Positions 18,585 to 41,558 of a DNA stretch of 64,000 nt are shown piece after piece. Under the pieces are notes generated by a model. The model was not told where the DNA came from, did no database searches, and worked only from the letters and a program-made list of their open reading frames with translations. This DNA is from Negaprion brevirostris (Eukaryota). A program made the translations under genes and the position numbers. Position 1 is the first letter of the stretch. Every line of letters begins with the position of its first letter. The stretch covers positions 108,145,391 to 108,209,390 of the forward strand of contig JARDVH010000042.1 in the NCBI GenBank assembly GCA_030324005.1. Reading direction: 5' to 3'.

Positions 18585-19306
18585 GTGAGTTGTGGGCTCC
18601 TACTCTAGTGTCATAAAGTTGTGGGTTCAAGTATCAAACCAGAGACACAAACACAAGAATCAAGGCTGACGCTCAAGTGTAGCTATAAAATTAACTCCAA
18701 TGCATGACTGTTGGTAATGCTGTCTTTNNNNNNNNNNNNNNNNNNNNNNNNNNNNNNNNNNNNNNNNNNNNNNNNNNNNNNNNNNNNNNNNNNNNNNNNN
18801 NNNNNNNNNNNNNNNNNNNNNNNNNNNTGAATCAAACGTTAAAATGAGACCCAAGTCTGCTCTCTCAAATGGGCAAAAAAGTTCCCATGGTATACTTCAA
18901 ATCTGCTATTCCCAGTGTCCTGACCAATACTTTTTCCTCTCCTGTGTCACGAAATAAGCAAATAATCTAGTCATTATCCATGAGGTTGATTCCACATCTA
19001 ATCTGTAATTATCCTGCAGTTATGTCTTTGCCCATATACGCCGTGTTTGTGAAGCTACCTCCACTCGCCTGATCAAGGCGCAGAATATTATTATATTCCA
19101 AATAATAATTATTTGGAATCAATTATTTGATTCCAAATAAACCTGTTCAGCTTTAACCTGATGTTGTGAGACTTCTTGTTCTAGTCATTATCATATGACT
19201 GTAGGAGATTGCTGTGCGTAAGTTGACTATGTTTGGTAAGCATTTCATTGACTGTAAAACCCTTTGGGACACATCAGGAAAAGGATGATATAAATGCAAG
19301 CCTTTC
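18585..19306 (+). mobile_element. DeuSINE (SacSINE1-like) interrupted by a Penelope-like insert
   Basis: gtgggttcaag B box, collinear with 62884-63310 (gttcccatggta, ttatca, ctgtaaa, atgcaa tail). Confidence 0.8.
18979..19179 (+). mobile_element. Penelope-like terminal fragment (family A) with 13-bp TSD
   Basis: aaataaacctgtt..ctttaacctg.tgttgtgagacttc is shared with 19690, 30808 and 38556. TSD tctagtcattatc at 18966-18978 and 19180-19192. Confidence 0.8.
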
Positions 19307-19319
19307 TTTCTTTGTTAAC

Positions 19320-19945
19320 ATATCTTTCTACTTTATTTCTTACGTGTTTATCAGGCTTCCATCTAAATGCATCAATGAAAATCACCTCAACTATTCTTTG
19401 TGGTGGCAAGATCCATATTTGTAGTATTCTTTGGACAAGGAATCTTCTGTTGGATTCCTCCTTGGAGTAATTAATGATGATTGTATATTTATGACCTCTA
19501 ATTTTGGATTCCCCATAAATGAGAGAATGTCTCTCCATCTACCTTATCAAACTGTTTCATAATTTTAAAGATTTCTGTGAAGATCTCTATCTCAACCCTC
19601 TCTTTATTTGAGAAGAGTCTCGGCCTCTTTAATGATAGCTATATCCTCATTGTTCTCCAGTCAACCTCGTGAATGGTTTTTGCACCTTATGATGTGGAGA
19701 TGCCGGAGTTGGACTGGGGTAAGCACAGTAAGAAGTCTCACAACACCAGGTTAAAATCCAACTGGTTTATTTGGTAGCAAAAGCCACAAAAGGCAGTGCT
19801 GTGAGAACTAAATAAACCTATTAGACTTTAACCTGGTGTTGTGAGACTTCTTATTTTGCACTTTACCCGGTGACTTAATATCTATTTTGCAATATGGAGA
19901 CCAGCAGCATTCAGAGTACCAAGAGGTGGTTCAAGCAAGGTTCAG
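19320..19945 (-). mobile_element. CR1 3' fragment
   Basis: GESKIRGHKYTI..EESNRRFLVQRILQIWILPPQRIVE. Resumes after the insert at 19690-19853. Confidence 0.8.
19690..19853. mobile_element. Penelope-like fold-back insertion (family A) with 12-bp TSD
   Basis: About 49-bp inverted arms (taagaagtctcacaacaccaggttaaa / tttaacctggtgttgtgagacttctta). TSD ttttgcacctta / ttttgcacttta. Confidence 0.85.
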
Positions 19946-29020: not shown

Positions 29021-30314
29021 TGAAGACCTCTAAGTTCTAGTTATTTTTATTTGTTACTTGGGGAATGCCTTGGATATCCGCTGCTGTTTGGTAATTCACT
29101 TATTTCTCTTAATTATCCTCAAATTAGATAAAGCCACATAATGAGAAGCCATTAACTAGTCAGATTATAAACATCACTGATGATAAATTGATCAGTTCTG
29201 AGATCATAGGGGAACATTCCCTCTTAATGCAAGGTGTAATAGTGTTGCTTTTAAAATCTTACTTATGTTAAACTTCAAGTAAATATTGTTGACTGGTAGC
29301 AGCCTTTGCCGAATACACAAAAAAACACAATTAATTACCAATATTCAGTTAATGATTGCTTTTCAGTTCAGACAATATGTATGTTAAAAGTCCCAGTTAA
29401 ATATGCATCATCCTCAGATGGGTTATGACTTTTCTTAGTGTTTTTAGTTGGACGTTTAAAAAAAAATAGAGAAGGAGCAAGTATAACAAAAGTCCTGCCA
29501 CTGTTCACGGAAGCAGACATGGTAACTGCAACCTGATATAGGACTTATAATCCAAAATCAAAATAGATTTTTTTTTGTGGGGCTGGTTTGAAATTTAAGT
29601 TGCATTATTCTGATTTGTCTACATTATTGTTATTACATTTGTCTGATTAGTCAATATATTTCTCAGAAGTCCTGCTATTGTTTCCTTGATTTTTAGCCTG
29701 GTTATTGAAGAGTTCCAATGGTGTCTGCAGCCTCTTTGCTCCACAGTATGGGAAGTTAACAACCAAGACAGCATGGAAGAAACTTTACACACCACGTGAT
29801 TAGCTTAGAAATCGCACCAGGATGGTTACATTTCTTCTGCTTGATGACTAGGATAGTCATCATGATACTGGAAGGCTTAACAAGTCTGGCTGTTTGATCG
29901 CTATTTCTATCGATTTACTGCATGAACTTGGTTGTTTAGGATATAACATCTCCGCTTTTCTTGACCACAGTTATAACATCAAACATTTACAAAACTGCAG
30001 ATCCTTTGTACATTAGAGGCTAATTTTTCTACCTGAAGTGCCCGGGAAATATTTAATTCCTGGACTACTCATGGTACGCTCGATACCTGTAGAGCAGTGA
30101 CACCAAAGTCTCGATTTTGACTCCAAAAATAGTTGTGTTGGTGTAACATCAGAGTTTAAAATAATGCAAAAAATCTGAAAGAGGGAGTGAACACCCTCAT
30201 TCCAATTTGAAAGAAAGCAAGAGGAAGGTTTGGTGACCAAATTGTTCATGGGAAGTGGCTTGGTTATTTACATATTATAATAATGCTTCCTGTCTTCTTT
30301 TGAAGTCATTCTAA

Positions 30315-30585
30315 TGTTAACCACAGTCAGACAAGATTCCCATTCCTCGGGTGAAATAACTCCTCAGATGCTGGTGTCCCTTCACTAGATTCCCTTTATT
30401 TATGAATGCAATTCCACTCCTTAGAGTGCTTCAGGTACAAAGTCAGAATCTAGAGTGTCAGTAGCCCTGACACTCCTCAATGTATACACAGGTGAGACTC
30501 CCTGATTGAGGTAATGATTGTCTGCCCAATCAGGGAGATCATCCTCTAAGAGTCCCACCTCATGGGTCTCATTGAGGTCATTACA
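30315..30585 (-). mobile_element. Solo LTR (probably Gypsy-type)
   Basis: TGT...ACA termini, minus-strand AATAAA (from ccctttatt), TATA-like tgtataca upstream of it, and internal inverted repeats. No TSD seen. Confidence 0.6.
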
Positions 30586-30807
30586 TTGGGAAACTTGGCA
30601 GCTTAAGGAGGTGAGAAGAGCTGAATCCATTGGGGAAAAGTGTACTTGTGGGTCAGGAAGAGCAGGTATGCTTCCTCCAGGCTCCATAATTTACCCTGTA
30701 AACCCTGTTCTGGCTGTGACAGACTGCCTGCCCCTACCCACACCTAGACCCCAATATGCACCAATATTCTGGGAGCCTCACTTTCCTGGTTTGTATTTTT
30801 GTAAATA

Positions 30808-30994
30808 CTGGCATTGGACTGGGGTAAACACAGTAAGAAGTCTCACAACACCAGGTTAAAATCCAACCAGTTTACTTGATAGTAAGCTCACAAGTTTTTG
30901 GAAACACTGTTCCTTCATCAGGTGTCATGGCCTCACACCTGACAAAGGAAGTGTTTCCGAAAGCTTGTGAGTTTAATATCAAGTAAACTGGTTG
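30808..30994. mobile_element. Penelope-like fold-back element (family A) with two divergent hammerhead remnants
   Basis: Arms 30864-30925 and 30935-30994 around a 9-nt spacer. Minus arm: cac-CTGATGA-aggaacagtgtttcc-aaaaactt-gtg. Plus arm: cac-CTGACAA-aggaagtgtttcc-GAAAGCTT-gtg. Confidence 0.85.
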
Positions 30995-31176
30995 NNNNNN
31001 NNNNTAATAACCTGACCCACCAAATTTGGGCACTGTGTGATTGGACAGGCGAAAGCATTCTTTGAGTGTACTCTTTTTGCAAAGGGCCCAGGAGAGTGAG
31101 GTAGGTGCAAGAAGATTAGCCTTTCATAAAATTAAGGAAAAGACAAAACTGGTAGGTTTTGCACATTGTTTGACAA

Positions 31177-31479
31177 TCATAGAGCCCTACTGTGCAGAAG
31201 GAGGCCATTTGACCCAGTGAGTCTGCACCGACAACAATCCCATGCCAAGCTCTACCCCACAACCCTACTCATTTACCCNNNNNNNNNNGGGCAATTTGGC
31301 ATGGCCAATCAATCTAACCTGCACGTTTTTGGACTATGGGAGGAAGTCCAAAAGGAAACTTATGCAGACACAGGGAGAATGCGCAAACTCCACACAAACA
31401 GTGACCCAAGCAGGAATCGAACCCAGGTTCTTAGAGCTGTGAGGCAACAGTACTAACCACTGTGCCACCATGCTACCCC
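31177..31479 (-). mobile_element. HE1-type V-SINE
   Basis: Reverse-complement head (ctaaccactgtgccaccatgctacc, aatcgaaccc), V-domain and CR1-type tail. Confidence 0.92.
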
Positions 31480-32109
31480 ATTTGTAATTGCAAATCTCAG
31501 ACATGGTGTCCGAGTTAAGCTTTCTGTACATAAATGCTTACTCAGATGTGAAGCTGTTAGTGTTCTTGTGGGTCTAAGATTTGACAAACACAGTGAAACA
31601 CTTTGAGTTTCTGCCACCCTTTAGCTCACTGTTGGAATGTATGTCAGTGTCAGTTGATGGACACAGAATGAATAAATAATAAATAAACGTTTTATTTTCA
31701 GGTGTTGTGATAAGACCATGAAGAGTTCCACCTCTGTCTTTATCGAGCAATGTAGCCAGTGTCACAGCTGTGTTAATCCAGTGTCACAGCTAAACAACAC
31801 CGGAATGTGAAACATTTTACCACTGTCTGAGATGAGGATTCAAAAATTCCAGTACTGTGGTATGAATTCCACTATGGGATATGTCTACTTGAAGTCCAAC
31901 AGGTCAGAGAGAAGCTGTAAATACTGAATGTTGTATTGCAGTACTCAATTTCTGCTGTTCAACACTGGGCAAGGTTACAATTTTGGTAGAATGCTGGTGT
32001 ATCTTCAGAAAAATGGAAAGTTCACCAGCTCCAGTGATGTGCTGCTGATCCTGACCATTTTCTCAACTATGCACTTGTGTCGTCATGAAAGATCACATAT
32101 TTTCATTTC

Positions 32110-32680
32110 TGTAACATCACCTGACTCTACCATGGCCTCAGCTCACCTGCTGCTGGATCTATCTTGAGCTTTGAGTATTGAAGTGTGCTCACTCCTGCCT
32201 GGCCTCCCATCTTCCACCGTCTATAAACTTGAACTCATTTAATCCTCTGCTGCCTAATTCCAAACCCATACCAAGTTGCCTCCACCCATCAGCCCGGCAC
32301 TTGCTGATGTACATTGGCTCCTGGGTTAAGCATTGCCTTTAATTTAAAATTCCATCCTCTTTTTCAAATCCTCCCATCGCCTCACACTTCTCTAACTACC
32401 TCCAGCTCTGCATCCTAGATATCTGCTCCAATCTGGCCTCCTGTGCATTGCTGATTTTAATCACAACAACATGTCTCTGCTTTCAGCTATTTTTATGCTT
32501 TGGAATTCCCTCAAACTTTTCCATCTATCTCTTCCTCAGTATGCTCCTTAGAACATAGTTCTTTGACCAAGCTTTTGGTCATCTGACTGAACAGTGCCTT
32601 GTATGGATCAATATGAAATTTTGTATGATGGTACTCCTGTTTAGCACCTTGGTAAATTTTTCTGGATTAATTTCTTCCAG
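32110..32680 (+). mobile_element. L2 LINE 3' end
   Basis: Decayed LLPGLPSSTVYKLELI and PISPALADVHWL, followed by an L2 3' UTR (ctttgaccaagcttttggtcatctg). Confidence 0.82.
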
Positions 32681-35960: not shown

Positions 35961-38555
35961 AGNNNNNNNNNNNNNNNNNNAACACATGGGACTGGTTTCC
36001 ATGAACAACCATGGATAAATTTTTCTGAGACACTAGGGATGGAAAAAGATGGGTTCCAGAATGGGTGGAGAAATTATTTTACATTTCAGAGAGCCCGTTG
36101 ATGAAGGAGAGAACCAGAGATAATTTTACACACACTTATAAAGATTTAATTGCGGAGTTGCATGTTGCATTTGGAGGTACATACTTGTAACGGCCACAGT
36201 TTAATTTGGAGGGACATGGGTAAATCCCCAGTTAATCCCTGCCATCTGCATGCAATGTATTAACACACAAATAAGGTACAACGAACATTGTTCTGACAGA
36301 TACCCAAGCAATAAAGGTGAAAATTATGACCCCTCCCATGTTAGTTACTGTATTGGAAAAGTGGTTCGCTGTCCCACGTGTTCAATAACTAGGAAGTTTG
36401 CAATTGTTTTAAGACTAAATGACCCTTTCTATTGAAGATGACTTATTACATTACTAGAATTAGTGTGGAATGGATTATGGTTAGGGAATAAAGTCCATAA
36501 TTTGAAGAGAAACATAAAATATAGAACATGTTTCAAAGGAGAGATTTATAAATCAAGAACTGGAACTGTAGGAGGAACGCCTGTGGGTTGAACAGCGGTT
36601 AACAAGACGATGCAGTTTTACTGATGTTTAAAGCATAACATCTGTGACACATTATCTGTGACACATTAATCACAAATTAATAAGCATTTACGGTTTGCAT
36701 AAAAATGCCTTAAAGCACCTAACTTCAATATAGGAAGTGTTTTCTGGTGAATCCTACTAGATATTAATCCATTCTTCAGCACAAATTTAGATTTTGATTT
36801 GAACAAGCTGCCTTTGAGGCAGAATTTGTGCTTTTCGAGCTACAGAGATTTTCAATTGTTTTTGTTCATATTTAACATTTTGCCACACTTCTTGGTGTCA
36901 GTTGTACAAGTGCAATAATAGCAACTTTCAACAAGCATGGAAGATGAACATCAGAGCAACTAGGGACAGCAGCCCGGCAAAGTAATATTCTCAAGTTAAC
37001 CACGAACAAAATGGACAGTTGCTCAAATCAAATCAAACTGTTGATTGGCAATGACTGTTTTCACTCGAGTCAATCATTACTGAACATTGCAATGTTGACT
37101 AACTTCATTAATAATTGGTAGAGATAAAAACTGAAGTTTGGCAAGGCCAAGTTTTATTTTTAACAATTGAAAATGTAAGTTAGATGTGACAGCGTCTGTT
37201 TCATTCATGCTGCAAACAGCTAAGAGCTGTGCCGTGAATAAATAATTGAGGAAGTTGGTTCTTTTTGCCTTTTTAAATTCTCTTAAATCTGTTTTATCAT
37301 TTAAAAGTGCCCTTAAAGTCAATATTAAAAGATTCACTCAGCTCATTAAACACAAGAGGGAAAAAAAAAACCCATGCCACACAGCAGGCCACACTCTGTG
37401 AAACAGCTTGCTTTCCAAGGGAGGTGAGTGCTTTCTCACTACGATTTCCCACCAAAACCCACACACAGACGATGCCTCCCGCAGTCAATCATAGCCTCCG
37501 CATTCACACTCTACTTAGTTACAGGGAGCTTGAATTTCATATCAAGTGCATGTTACTGTGATGGACAAATATGCATTCAGCAGAATTGCCACACATGTGG
37601 CAATCATCCGAGAATGGTCCACAGATTACTAACCTTGTTAGTCACACAACATGTACTGTGCAAAGGCACTGACTGGAAAGTTGTGCACTGTAACAAGTAA
37701 TCTCCTGTAATGTAATTGCTCTAATGCTTCAATTGTGCATTTCTGTTGAGCCTTTCAGTTGCTCTCTGTCTCAAGTATGACTTTGCCTGAATGCAGCACC
37801 AAAAAGGAGCACATTCATTATCTAAGTACAATACACTTAAATAGGTAACCTCCATTGCTATTTTGCTTCACATTGCAGTAAAGATTACAGATGCTCACAT
37901 TTGAAATGTGACATCCCAAATTTTCGGGGTGCTAAAGGAAGGTTCTCAAACTTGGTTTCTTCTGTAGGCTTCAGACAGGTTACCATCTGAGGATTTGGAA
38001 GTTGTGTCGTACAATGTTGGCATCAGTGGAAATCTGTTGAAGGGTTGGCGGGAACAGCAAGAACGTGCCAATAAAACGGTAGCAGCAGACAAGTTTCAGC
38101 AGGTTGGGAGAGATGTGTGGTAGATCATCATAGCTTATTTCTATTCAGGGACCCTTGCCAGTATTTTATAAGGACTTCGATGTTCCCTTTTGGAAAGTCA
38201 AGTCTGCCTTGATCTTCACAATAAAACCATAGGTTGTTTCATTAAAAGGTACAATGAGTGGAATTTAATATTTGCAGTGGGACTCTCCCAGCCCTCAACT
38301 GGAGATGGCCTGTTGGTACTAAATATCCATCAGACACCTAACTGGCCAATGTCAGGCATTCCCTGGATTAAAGACCCAGCTGGGAAGAATTCTATCCACC
38401 CCTCCCCATCTTTATGTACCAATCAGAAGCTGGCAGCTCTCTGTTGCCAGTCAGCACCATTGTACTGTTGTGGCAACTGTCAACAATGCACCCACCAGAG
38501 GCCTAGGGTCAACGAGGGACTCCAACCTACAAGTTCATAAAAGCAAGATGGAGGA

Positions 38556-38729
38556 ACACAGTATGAAATCTCACAACACCCCGTTAAAGTCCAACAGATT
38601 TATTTGGTAGCAAAAGCCACTTTTAGTAGCAAAAGCTTTTGCTACCAAATAAACCTGTTGTACTTTAACCTGGCGTTGTGAGACTTCGTACTGTGTTTAC
38701 CCCAGTCCAACGCTGGCATCTCCACATCA
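38556..38729. mobile_element. Penelope-like fold-back insertion (family A) with about 17-bp TSD
   Basis: About 62-bp inverted arms. Flanking direct repeat caagatggagga(a)cacag at 38544-38561 and 38728-38744. Confidence 0.85.
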
Positions 38730-41558
38730 AGATGGAGGACACAGGGAGGCCTTATCTGACCAGGGTGGGATGGAGGATGGTTGGGGGGAGGGAGAAGGTG
38801 CAGTAGGGAGGTCAGAAAAAAGCATAGGGGTGTGGCTCGAAGCAGACCGCCCTGCCCCCGATGCTTACTGCAAGTAAAGATGGTCTCTGAGCAATTCTAG
38901 ATCCAGCTGTGCTCCGCTGCTTCCAGCATTATTATCCATAAATGAAGCAGACGTTAAAATTTACAAGTCCACTATTTCACTTTGTCAATCGACTATTGGT
39001 TTTTGAATGTAATGATGTGGAAAACTGATGTTCCCTGTGTGAAGACATTAAGCTCATCATGTTAGCTGCTCCATATATCAGAAGAAGTTGGATGAATTTA
39101 GCACCTACCTGCTGATCTTTGTAAGCTGACTAATTTCTGCGACTACTAGTAGTAGTATAGGCCAAAGTTCTGAGATTTATTCTGAGGTTGCCAAAGGCTT
39201 ATTGTATTACTTATCCTTGATAGTACGATACAGATGAAGTTGTTTATATTGTATTTTTCTGCTGAAATTACATGACTAAATATTAGTGCCAGGCTCAGTT
39301 CAGCCAGGCTTATGCAGTGCTCCATTAGTTGTCCTGCACTGGAGTATCATGACAATATAAATGATATAATCCCCTCACCCATTCTCATCGTGTCATCTTT
39401 ACATAATCATATTTGTGTCAATATAAGGGTAAGTAACTAAGTAATTTCAATAATATTTTCATACCTTGCATTGAGGTAAAGAATCTGAATACAGTGCATG
39501 ATTAAGAACGCAGCATTTGAAGTTCCATTTCTAAGTACTTTGCTTGCTGTCATTATATTTCTTCACACCCTACCATGTACTTGCACTAAAGCGCAAATGT
39601 TATTTTTCACCGTAATTCATATTTAGAATCTTGGTCCTGAGTTTGGTTAATCTGTAAGCCTCAGGTCCTAGTAAATTCATTTTTTGTGAGCATTCTACCA
39701 AGAGGGGCATTGAAATCCTGGTCAGGAAAATGGGGGTCAATGAGTGCTAAAAGCACCATTGCCTGTGTACTTAGATTCACTAGTTTCCCTGTATTTGTGG
39801 TTTGTTTGAAAGCTTGGTGATTAAATGGCTACCTGGCCACGCACCAGACTTTTTCCTGTGAACTCATTATGGGTTCCAGTTTTGCCTTCCCTATTCCAGC
39901 CAAAAATTTTCAGTGCCGATGTGTCTGAATTAACCTGCTTGTGGGAAGTTTTAATAACATTCGCCTTTCATTTCAGAAATCTTTTGATGAAACAATGGGG
40001 AATCTCGTGCAGATAGGGTGAGGGTTTTGTTTATCCCCGAATCTCCAAGTGCCTGAATCCAGGATGTCCCAAGCTTTTGTTTTTGCGAGCTGCATTCATG
40101 TGTACGATGGATAACTTGGGCCTTGTACAACGTTTAATTTAATGTTTTGATATAACATTTCACCTTTCCATTTATCTGATGTTGCTAATATGAAGTGGCG
40201 TAGGTGTTTCTGATCTGATCCATCAAGAGGCAACATTCCTTTCCGTACCTCAAAAATCACAAAGTAGGTAAAATAATATCGGCTGGAACAGGATTGAATT
40301 ACCTGTGAGGTTTCCAGGTATTGAGGGCCTAAGGTTGCAGGTTGGGTTCCCAGGACTAAGTGAAGTGAACATGAAAAACATTGATCCTTGCTTTTCCACG
40401 GCGCAGTGCAATGTTTAATTTGGCACTACATTACGTTAATTGGGCAATCTTGCTCCAGGAAACGGCGAGGATGGCTGTTTGGAATGGAAAACATCACACA
40501 AATGTAGGGACTCATTCTGGTGTTGAATTTAAGGCACTTTATTGAAACAGGGCGAAGGAGAGATCTACTTAATCTCACATCCTCGGAGTCTTTTAAAAAG
40601 CAGTGAACGTTTCATTTCCCTCCTAGCACTGAAACAACTCTCTGCAATAAACACAGAATCCATCAAAATCATAAGCAACAACCTACTTGTTTTGCATGCA
40701 GATTCCTCCTCTAGGCTTATACATGTTTCTTCAGAAATAGAGGTTTTATATTGACTTCCAAATGAATGACAGCTTTGCATCCTCATACCGATAGCTTCCT
40801 GCCTTAAAGCCTAAAATATCTTTATGTCTGATCCCCTGTGGCCTAATTGAACAACAGAAAAAAAAAGGTCTCTTTGTATGTTTTTGATGCTCTGTTACAT
40901 GACACAGCATGTTGACTGCTGCAATAAGATAGGCAAAGATTTATGAAACTTAAACTTGTAAGCCGTGTGGAAGAATGGATACCTGGAGGCAGTTATGAGC
41001 TCCAGATTCCATCAAGGATTTCTGATGGTATCAAAAAAAAAACCACAAGAATGAAATTTCAGCAGTTCATTATTGTTAGCAGTCCCTGAGATTAAAACAG
41101 CCTGATCTCCCTGATGTGCTGCTTTCAAAATTACTTGTGATATTAAGAAGAATATAAAGTTGACGTAAAGATTAGATTTTATTTTGACGTTTTTTCTCCA
41201 TCACAATGGGCAGGTGGAAATAATGCAGAATAATGCAGGAGAGAGGATGTAATGTGCTGTGATATTGATTCCTAGTTTACATGGTCACGTTTCAGGTATG
41301 GTAAGGTACCAGCGTTTATGTGGGGGCAGTGGGGGGGCATGAAACCTCATAAACAGTGAAATTGCGACAGCAGAAATACTTCACAAAGGGAGTCAAGTAG
41401 ATAGGTTCCAATCATCTTAAAATGTTACGTGTCGATGGAATCAAAGACAGTAAAAATATGTTTATAATCAATTTAAAGAGAAATTTACTGGTGGAATTGT
41501 TTAATAAAACAAGAAGACGAGAAAAGTGTAGAAGTTGCCATATTTACAGGAAGAATTT

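What the first reader, a model, noticed from the sequence alone, without database searches (positions are those of the whole stretch)
30808..30994. Fold-back element carrying two divergent minimal hammerhead ribozyme remnants
Seen: about 60-bp inverted arms around a 9-nt spacer. The minus arm keeps CUGAUGA (30915-30921) but has AAAA in place of GAAA. The plus arm keeps GAAAGCUU (30959-30966) but has CUGACAA. The merged consensus is CAC-CUGAUGA-A-GGAA..UUCC-GAAAGCU-U-GUG. Known: Penelope-like elements carry minimal type I hammerheads whose helix III is reduced to a palindrome (here AGCU) and that are thought to cleave as dimers. Inference: this is a short non-autonomous, retrozyme-like Penelope derivative with a ribozyme on each strand. 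Each arm is now singly inactivated, and the mutations are complementary.
Basis: partly seen in the sequence, partly recalled or inferred. Interest (0 to 1): 0.7.

Follow-up and report, generated by a model that had tools for sequence, protein, structure and literature searches.

The report
Decayed back-to-back shark Penelope stub
This hairpin is two short, mirror-image copies of the ribozyme-bearing end of a very common shark jumping gene (a Penelope-like retrotransposon), likely laid down together in one insertion and since worn by ordinary mutation; the layout is already known, and the 'complementary' ribozyme damage is what chance would give.

Summary
The hairpin and both hammerhead motifs are real, at the stated coordinates. 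It is not a retrozyme-like mobile unit. It is a head-to-head pair of 5'-truncated 3' ends of an endonuclease-bearing Penelope-like element, whose longer copies run into a GIY-YIG ORF; the subfamily has thousands of copies. The family core is CUGACGA. G8 and G12 both sit in CpGs, so CUGACAA and AAAA are ordinary CpG decay. The 'complementary' pattern occurs in 6 of 34 fold-backs, 3.7 expected. Each arm has a second lesion, and the hairpin disfavours the hammerhead fold by about 40 kcal/mol. Junctions differ in 60 of 62 fold-backs, so each was likely assembled at insertion. The family carries the more useful signal. All 18 TSD-bounded inverted insertions in fresh loci pair one tailed with one tail-less arm. 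The two arms share subfamily alleles, and the tail-less arm is usually longer. This fits priming from both target nicks on one RNA better than fold-back copying. Inverted pLTR, tail and opposite-strand hammerheads are published. This scan noted the same reading before, on other shark DNA and in this genome.

The parts
30808..30925 (-). Left arm: 5'-truncated 3' end (pLTR) of a Penelope-like element, subfamily B, with part of the 35-40 nt tail at its outer end (true edge may be near 30798)
   Evidence: Aligns to the family ruler at 91%, 30810-30925; tail seen in family copies
30891..30924 (-). Minimal hammerhead remnant, minus strand: CUGAUGA intact (N7 C to U, neutral), G12 to A (30899), G15.2 to A (30895)
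   Evidence: family majority C at 30895 also
30926..30934 (.). Head-to-head junction and 9-nt loop, unique to this copy
   Evidence: junctions differ between copies
30931..30994 (+). Right arm: second 5'-truncated copy of the same end, cut off by the assembly gap; predicted to be the tail-less arm
   Evidence: Aligns at 85%; shares two non-majority letters with the left arm; tail rule
30936..30969 (+). Minimal hammerhead remnant, plus strand: G8 to A (30944), 2-nt deletion in loop II, GAAAGCU and U17 intact
   Evidence: (table 4)
30995..31004 (.). Assembly gap (10 N, true size unknown), likely hiding the end of the right arm and the right target-site duplication
   Evidence: not filled

Best explanation
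The element is two 5'-truncated copies of the 3' end of a shark Penelope-like retrotransposon joined head to head, likely made in one insertion when both cut strands of the target were used as primers on the element's RNA, and its two hammerhead motifs carry CpG-type mutations that likely inactivate them. Shown: family identity, link to the GIY-YIG ORF, 11-15 bp target-site duplications in relatives, one tailed plus one tail-less arm, shared alleles between arms, independent CpG decay, and unique junctions. Inferred: the GIY-YIG domain makes a staggered cut; one 3' end primes at the inner start site (tail-less arm, usually longer) and the other at the outer start site 35-40 nt further 3' (tailed arm); both cDNAs stop early and are end-joined. 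Afterwards methyl-CpG deamination hits G8 and G12. This copy has no predicted function.
For: Copy number: 3338 exact hits of a subfamily-B 21-mer and 19,123 of the sister subfamily A, controls 0. ORF link: B-type ends continue into a GIY-YIG C-terminus in L058, L071, L073, L080. The ORF matches shark RT/HTH/GIY-YIG proteins at up to 88% and has the CX4CxxC linker. Architecture: in 80 fresh loci, 18 of 18 TSD-bounded inverted insertions were tailed plus tail-less (p = 7.6e-6 against 50%), with 0 inverted calls in 76 shifted controls. In the first 124 pattern-anchored loci, 29 of 32 TSD-bounded insertions were inverted, none tail/tail. Same template: arms agree at polymorphic site 92 in 40 of 42 pairs (21 expected), but not at the six CpG positions (p 0.23-1). 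Not one arm copied from the other: the tail-less arm reaches further 5' in 33 of 48 pairs and 21 of 28, and the tailed arm holds letters that the other lacks. In vitro, an anole PLE nicks and extends both strands and starts at two sites that bound the tail (PMC11167929).
Against: Most loci gave no recognisable TSD (92 of 124; 55 of 80, plus 4 with N at the end), so the rule rests on a minority. Without the TSD filter there are exceptions: 43 tail/tail-less, 2 tail-less pairs, 1 tail/tail, 11 unclear; 48, 13 and 1, where gapped or decayed ends count as tail-less. Allele sharing could also come from sibling RNAs of one master copy active at the time. Only 19 of 62 junctions show overlap and 36 carry extra letters, so the joining step is unclear. 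The anole study saw no strand bias between start sites. No locus joined an RT core directly to a B-type end (L082, RT to hammerhead, is type A). This copy's own TSD and right end are hidden by the gap.
Confidence: 0.72

Rival explanations
1. Same element identity, but the inversion arises by self-priming or fold-back (Arkhipova's self-priming on an antisense template, or a first cDNA folding back and copying itself) and not by priming from both target nicks.
For: Proposed for head-to-head PLE structures in PMC3846280. It explains shared alleles. Four of 62 junctions overlap by 5-7 nt against about 0.5% in a null. An antisense TATA-like motif lies upstream of the hammerhead.
Against: Simple cDNA fold-back needs the tailed arm to contain the tail-less arm; the opposite holds in 33 of 48 pairs, and tailed arms can be as short as 8-25 nt. 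Most junctions are not palindromic. The antisense-RNA version is not strictly excluded.
Confidence: 0.17
2. One reading: a short non-autonomous, retrozyme- or MITE-like hairpin unit that moves as such, with a ribozyme on each strand and complementary lesions.
For: Many hairpins of similar size exist (40 of 40 scored candidates matched on both strands), and arm 5' ends pile up just upstream of the hammerhead (18 of 36 arms that reach that 10-nt bin stop in it).
Against: 60 of 62 junctions are distinct. Arm lengths grade from 8 nt to over 500 nt and into the ORF. Lesions are independent CpG decay, complementary in 6 of 34 against 3.7 expected, with both arms intact in 1 of 34. The hammerhead fold costs 37-43 kcal/mol against the hairpin. 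Retrozymes are direct tandem repeats (10.64898/2026.07.22.740005).
Confidence: 0.06
3. Two independent insertions or a later rearrangement or assembly artefact produced the inversion.
For: The copy abuts an N gap; inverted repeats trouble short-read assembly; no contig bridged the whole element.
Against: Gap-free relatives have one TSD around both arms, including two others in this window. The arms here are about 84% alike, not identical, and share two non-majority letters.
Confidence: 0.05

Closest known systems
EN+ Penelope-like insertions with inverted pLTR, tail and TSD (Adineta vaga Pen2/Pen2a, PMC3846280; general scheme in PMC8557442 fig. 2)
   Same: Head-to-head inverted 5'-truncated copy, 30-40 nt tail at only one end, TSD around the whole unit, hammerhead in the pLTR.
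   Different: Here both arms are stubs with no ORF between them; TSDs are 11-15 bp against 8-10 bp in A. vaga. The papers call the tail optional and give no counts; here the one-tail pairing and shared alleles are counted.
Minimal hammerheads of metazoan PLEs (Cervera and De la Pena 2014, PMC4209133)
   Same: CUGANGA, an extra base between 9 and 10.1, G10.1-C11.1, palindromic helix III. That paper already reports dual min-HHRs 100-700 bp apart on opposite strands in Schistosoma.
   Different: Shark family; helix I only 3 bp; 4-bp helix II and U17 in subfamily B; this copy has lost G8 on one arm and G12 on the other.
Poseidon PAc of Anolis (Frangieh 2024, PMC11167929)
   Same: Two reverse-transcription start sites bounding the tail in a stem-loop region; both target strands cut and extended; hammerhead cleavage not needed for insertion.
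   Different: PAc is Poseidon clade, while this ORF has the CX2-5CxxC linker of Neptune/Nematis. The paper does not derive the inverted layout from the two start sites.
Non-LTR retrozymes (10.64898/2026.07.22.740005)
   Same: Non-coding, pLTR-derived, type I hammerhead.
   Different: Retrozymes are direct tandem repeats with a same-strand hammerhead in each unit; this is an inverted pair with no fixed unit.
LINE-1 twin priming (recalled, not read here)
   Same: Second target nick primes a second cDNA, giving an inversion inside one TSD.
   Different: In L1 the second priming is internal and the two pieces do not overlap; here both start at the 3' end and duplicate it.

Membership tests
EN+ Penelope-like element | RT plus C-terminal GIY-YIG endonuclease in longer family members | tested here: met
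   GIY-YIG C-terminus contiguous with B-type ends; RT motifs, EN and an A-type end in L082; homologues with RVT_1 and weak GIY-YIG hits, atlas GIY-YIG score 0.97. Pfam found nothing relevant on the genome's own decayed fragments. No RT core was seen contiguous with a B-type end.
EN+ Penelope-like element | 5' truncation, inverted copy, 30-40 nt tail at one end, TSD | tested here: met
   for the family; for this copy the inversion and a partial tail are seen, the TSD is hidden by the gap.
Neptune/Nematis clades | CX2-5CxxC linker before GIY-YIG and two cysteines inside GIY-YIG | tested here: met
   CX4CxxC and the internal cysteines; criteria from PMC8557442.
Neptune clade proper | Placement in an RT phylogeny | not tested
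   No named reference RTs were at hand; the clade is called from the motif only.
Minimal type I hammerhead (family consensus) | CUGANGA, GAAA, UH, G10.1-C11.1, palindromic helix III | tested here: met
   both boxes intact in 63 of 143 B arms.
Minimal type I hammerhead (family consensus) | Covariation in helices | tested here: inconclusive
   Helix II covaries between subfamilies (pair 4: 39 A-U, 4 G-C, 3 G-U, 1 A-C of 47; G-C majority in subfamily A; an all G-C variant). Helix I (3 bp) is invariant, so gives no signal.
Minimal type I hammerhead (this copy) | Intact catalytic core on one strand, free to fold | tested here: not met
   G12A plus G15.2A on one arm, G8A on the other; roles of G8 and G12 from PMC6155905; hairpin penalty 37-43 kcal/mol.
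Minimal type I hammerhead | Self-cleavage as a dimer | not testable with these tools
   Needs an assay. No pile-up of 5' ends at the predicted cut (4 of 67, background rate).
Non-LTR retrozyme | Direct tandem units, each with a same-strand hammerhead | tested here: not met
   Inverted pair, no tandem copy in 29500-32500.
MITE or other mobile hairpin unit | Fixed unit with a shared internal junction among copies | tested here: not met
   60 of 62 junctions distinct.

The most novel reading that the evidence does not exclude
Penelope-like elements insert by asymmetric twin priming. The two 3' ends of one staggered cut each prime on the same RNA, one always at the inner and one at the outer start site. 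This would explain the inverted pLTR, the one-sided tail and the TSD in one step and replace the self-priming model. Many cDNAs then run off a natural RNA 5' end just upstream of the hammerhead, not at its cut site.
Probability: 0.5. Interest if true: 0.55.

Novelty: new member of a known kind. Interest (0 to 1): 0.24.

Why it matters
This copy is an ordinary dead insertion. Its family is a large fossil record of how Penelope-like elements integrate, which recent papers still call unresolved (PMC8557442, PMC11167929). The one-tail-per-insertion pairing, shared alleles and arm-length asymmetry give predictions that can be tested in the existing in vitro system. The CpG context of G8 and G12 also explains why genomic copies of this hammerhead decay fast, and warns against reading design into such lesions.

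Tried and rejected
Rfam: no hammerhead family at E <= 10. Pfam on seven decayed ORF fragments of the genome: nothing relevant; PDB sequence search of one RT fragment: nothing. Gap filling: contigs of four runs did not bridge the element; four others cover 31005-31150 and run past its start, but those letters are not shown, so the gap stays open. Two contigs run from the unique left flank into the element's first 14-37 letters, marginal as a bridge. No RNA holder listed. Hammerhead cleavage as the source of 5' ends: not supported, 4 of 67 arms end at the cut, the background rate (26 of 107 arms dropped for N, 2 for another helix II). Splicing at the CAG upstream of helix I: no common upstream exon among arms ending there. 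Complementation in trans between the two lesions: rejected, because each core needs both boxes around one helix II and the hairpin dominates (and inference). No ORF of 110 aa or more near the element looked like a host gene; none was searched further. Literature searches for a twin-priming model of PLEs found no paper stating it, but the library lacks most subscription journals; supplements of PMC11167929 (fig. S1, S2) and of the bioRxiv preprint were not seen and may bear on this.

Full report
OBSERVATION. The hairpin is real. 30864-30925 pairs with 30935-30994 around a 9-nt loop, -92.4 kcal/mol, z = -13.8, 0 of 200 shuffles. Rfam has no hammerhead hit here.

WHAT IT IS. A search of the 2.69-Gb genome gave 2951 candidates; the 40 scored all matched on both strands. 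Exact patterns give 818, 3338 and 3626 hits for this subfamily (B) and 19,123 for a sister subfamily (A), with reversed controls 0. Copies are 5'-truncated at variable points. The longest B copies run through a 3' UTR into the C-terminus of a GIY-YIG endonuclease (L058, L071, L073, L080). That piece has 12,714 candidates in the genome. RT motifs lie upstream in L064, L066 and L082; L082 ends in an A-type hammerhead, and I saw no RT core contiguous with a B-type end. The ORF matches shark proteins with RVT_1 and HTH_animal domains at up to 88% (18 hits), the atlas places it with GIY-YIG clusters at 0.97, and it has the CX4CxxC linker and internal cysteines that PMC8557442 gives for Neptune/Nematis (passages). 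The host is thus very likely a shark, and the finding is two copies of the 3' end of this element joined head to head.

THE HAMMERHEAD. Subfamily A has a 5-bp helix II with G-C where B has A-U, and an all G-C variant occurs. This fits the minimal hammerhead of PMC4209133 (Results and Discussion read), which also reports pairs on opposite strands. G8 and G12 are both the G of a CpG. Among 143 B arms the first CpG reads CG 70, TG 40, CA 29, and the second CG 63, TG 31, CA 39, against 4.2% mismatch at non-CpG sites. CUGAUGA, CUGACAA and AAAA are therefore all CpG decay products. Of 34 fold-backs with both cores, 6 have the 'complementary' pattern (3.7 expected from arm frequencies, in a sample that includes the best hits to this query) and 1 has both arms intact. 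This copy has further lesions: G15.2 to A on the minus arm and a 2-nt loop II deletion on the plus arm. G12 and G8 are the general base and acid (PMC6155905, passages), so both arms are likely dead. Forcing the hammerhead fold costs 42.6 (plus) and 37.1 (minus) kcal/mol against the hairpin.

IS THE HAIRPIN A MOBILE UNIT? No sign of it: 60 of 62 junction coordinate pairs are distinct, and arm lengths grade from 8 nt to over 500 nt. Retrozymes are direct tandem arrays (preprint 10.64898/2026.07.22.740005, parts 1-3 of 5 read), and none is present here.

HOW THE LAYOUT ARISES. Family ends fall in two classes 35-40 nt apart: tailed and tail-less. In 124 pattern-anchored loci 32 had a recognisable TSD and 92 did not. 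Of the 32, 29 were inverted: 26 tailed plus tail-less, and 3 tailed plus an end a few bases shorter still. One of the 29 (L156) is probably spurious. I noted the test beforehand and ran it on 80 fresh loci: 18 inverted, all tailed plus tail-less; 3 direct, two of them next to N; 55 without TSD; 4 with N at the end; 0 inverted calls in 76 shifted controls (p = 7.6e-6). Without the TSD filter exceptions appear (43: 2: 1 with 11 unclear; 48: 13: 1). TSDs are mostly 11-15 bp. The two arms of one insertion share alleles (site 92: 40 of 42, 21 expected; site 71: 30 of 34; site 119: 37 of 42) and private variants (0.48 against 0.13 per pair), while CpG decay is independent. So they likely came from one template and diverged afterwards. 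The arms of this copy share two non-majority letters. The tail-less arm reaches further 5' in 33 of 48 pairs and 21 of 28 N-free TSD-bounded pairs (16 of the 17 inverted loci of the 20-mer set were included, L156 left out). Neither arm can then be a simple copy of the other. Junctions: 19 overlap, 7 blunt, 36 with extra letters, of 62. I infer that both 3' ends of a staggered cut prime reverse transcription, one at each start site, and that the cDNAs are end-joined. PMC11167929 (main text read) shows both strands cut and extended and two start sites bounding the tail, but reports no strand bias. PMC3846280 (passages and Discussion) describes the same layout and prefers self-priming on an antisense template.

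5' ENDS. Prompted by earlier scan notes, I mapped 79 of 107 B arms. Of 36 arms that reach a 10-nt bin just upstream of helix I, 18 stop in it (0.050 per nt against 0.016 and 0.011 in the neighbouring bins), while the predicted cleavage site shows the background rate. The bin lies about 20 nt downstream of a TATA-like motif, so it may be an RNA start; this is untested, and dropping arms next to N may inflate it. The arms of this copy stop a few bases further in.

VERDICT. A real but ordinary decayed insertion in a published layout (PMC8557442 and PMC8969392, passages). The scan has reported the same reading on other shark DNA and in this genome; I did not count those notes as support. Interest 0.24 for this locus; the family-level twin-priming reading would deserve about 0.55 if shown.

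Noticed in passing
window 19690-19853 and 38556-38727: Two more head-to-head PLE stubs (subfamily A, truncated before the hammerhead), each with one tailed and one tail-less arm and a 12-bp TSD (19678-19689 / 19854-19865; 38544-38555 / 38728-38739).
   Followed up: yes
window 19109-19180: A tail-less single PLE end next to a 32-bp AT-rich palindrome.
   Followed up: no
window 30409-30566: Another multi-copy repeat with an internal hairpin (30497-30537); contigs of four runs show many opposite-strand joints there.
   Followed up: no
window 31150-31478: SINE-like repeat with several copies in the window; it resembles the shark HE1-type SINE (name recalled, not from a call).
   Followed up: no
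family 3' end (ruler columns 111-165): The tail pairs with upstream sequence in an 8-bp stem, so the two end classes lie inside and beyond a stem-loop, as for the start sites of the anole element.
   Followed up: partly
L205, L227, L228: A third helix II variant made only of G-C pairs around a CAAA loop.
   Followed up: no
L060, L112: TSD-bounded insertions that hold extra DNA, not matching the ruler, between the two arms.
   Followed up: no
P0005, P0011, P0013, P0014: Annotated shark protein isoforms (NOXP20-like, septin 5a, XRCC5, PPP1R12A-like) contain pieces of this PLE ORF: exonisation or annotation error.
   Followed up: no
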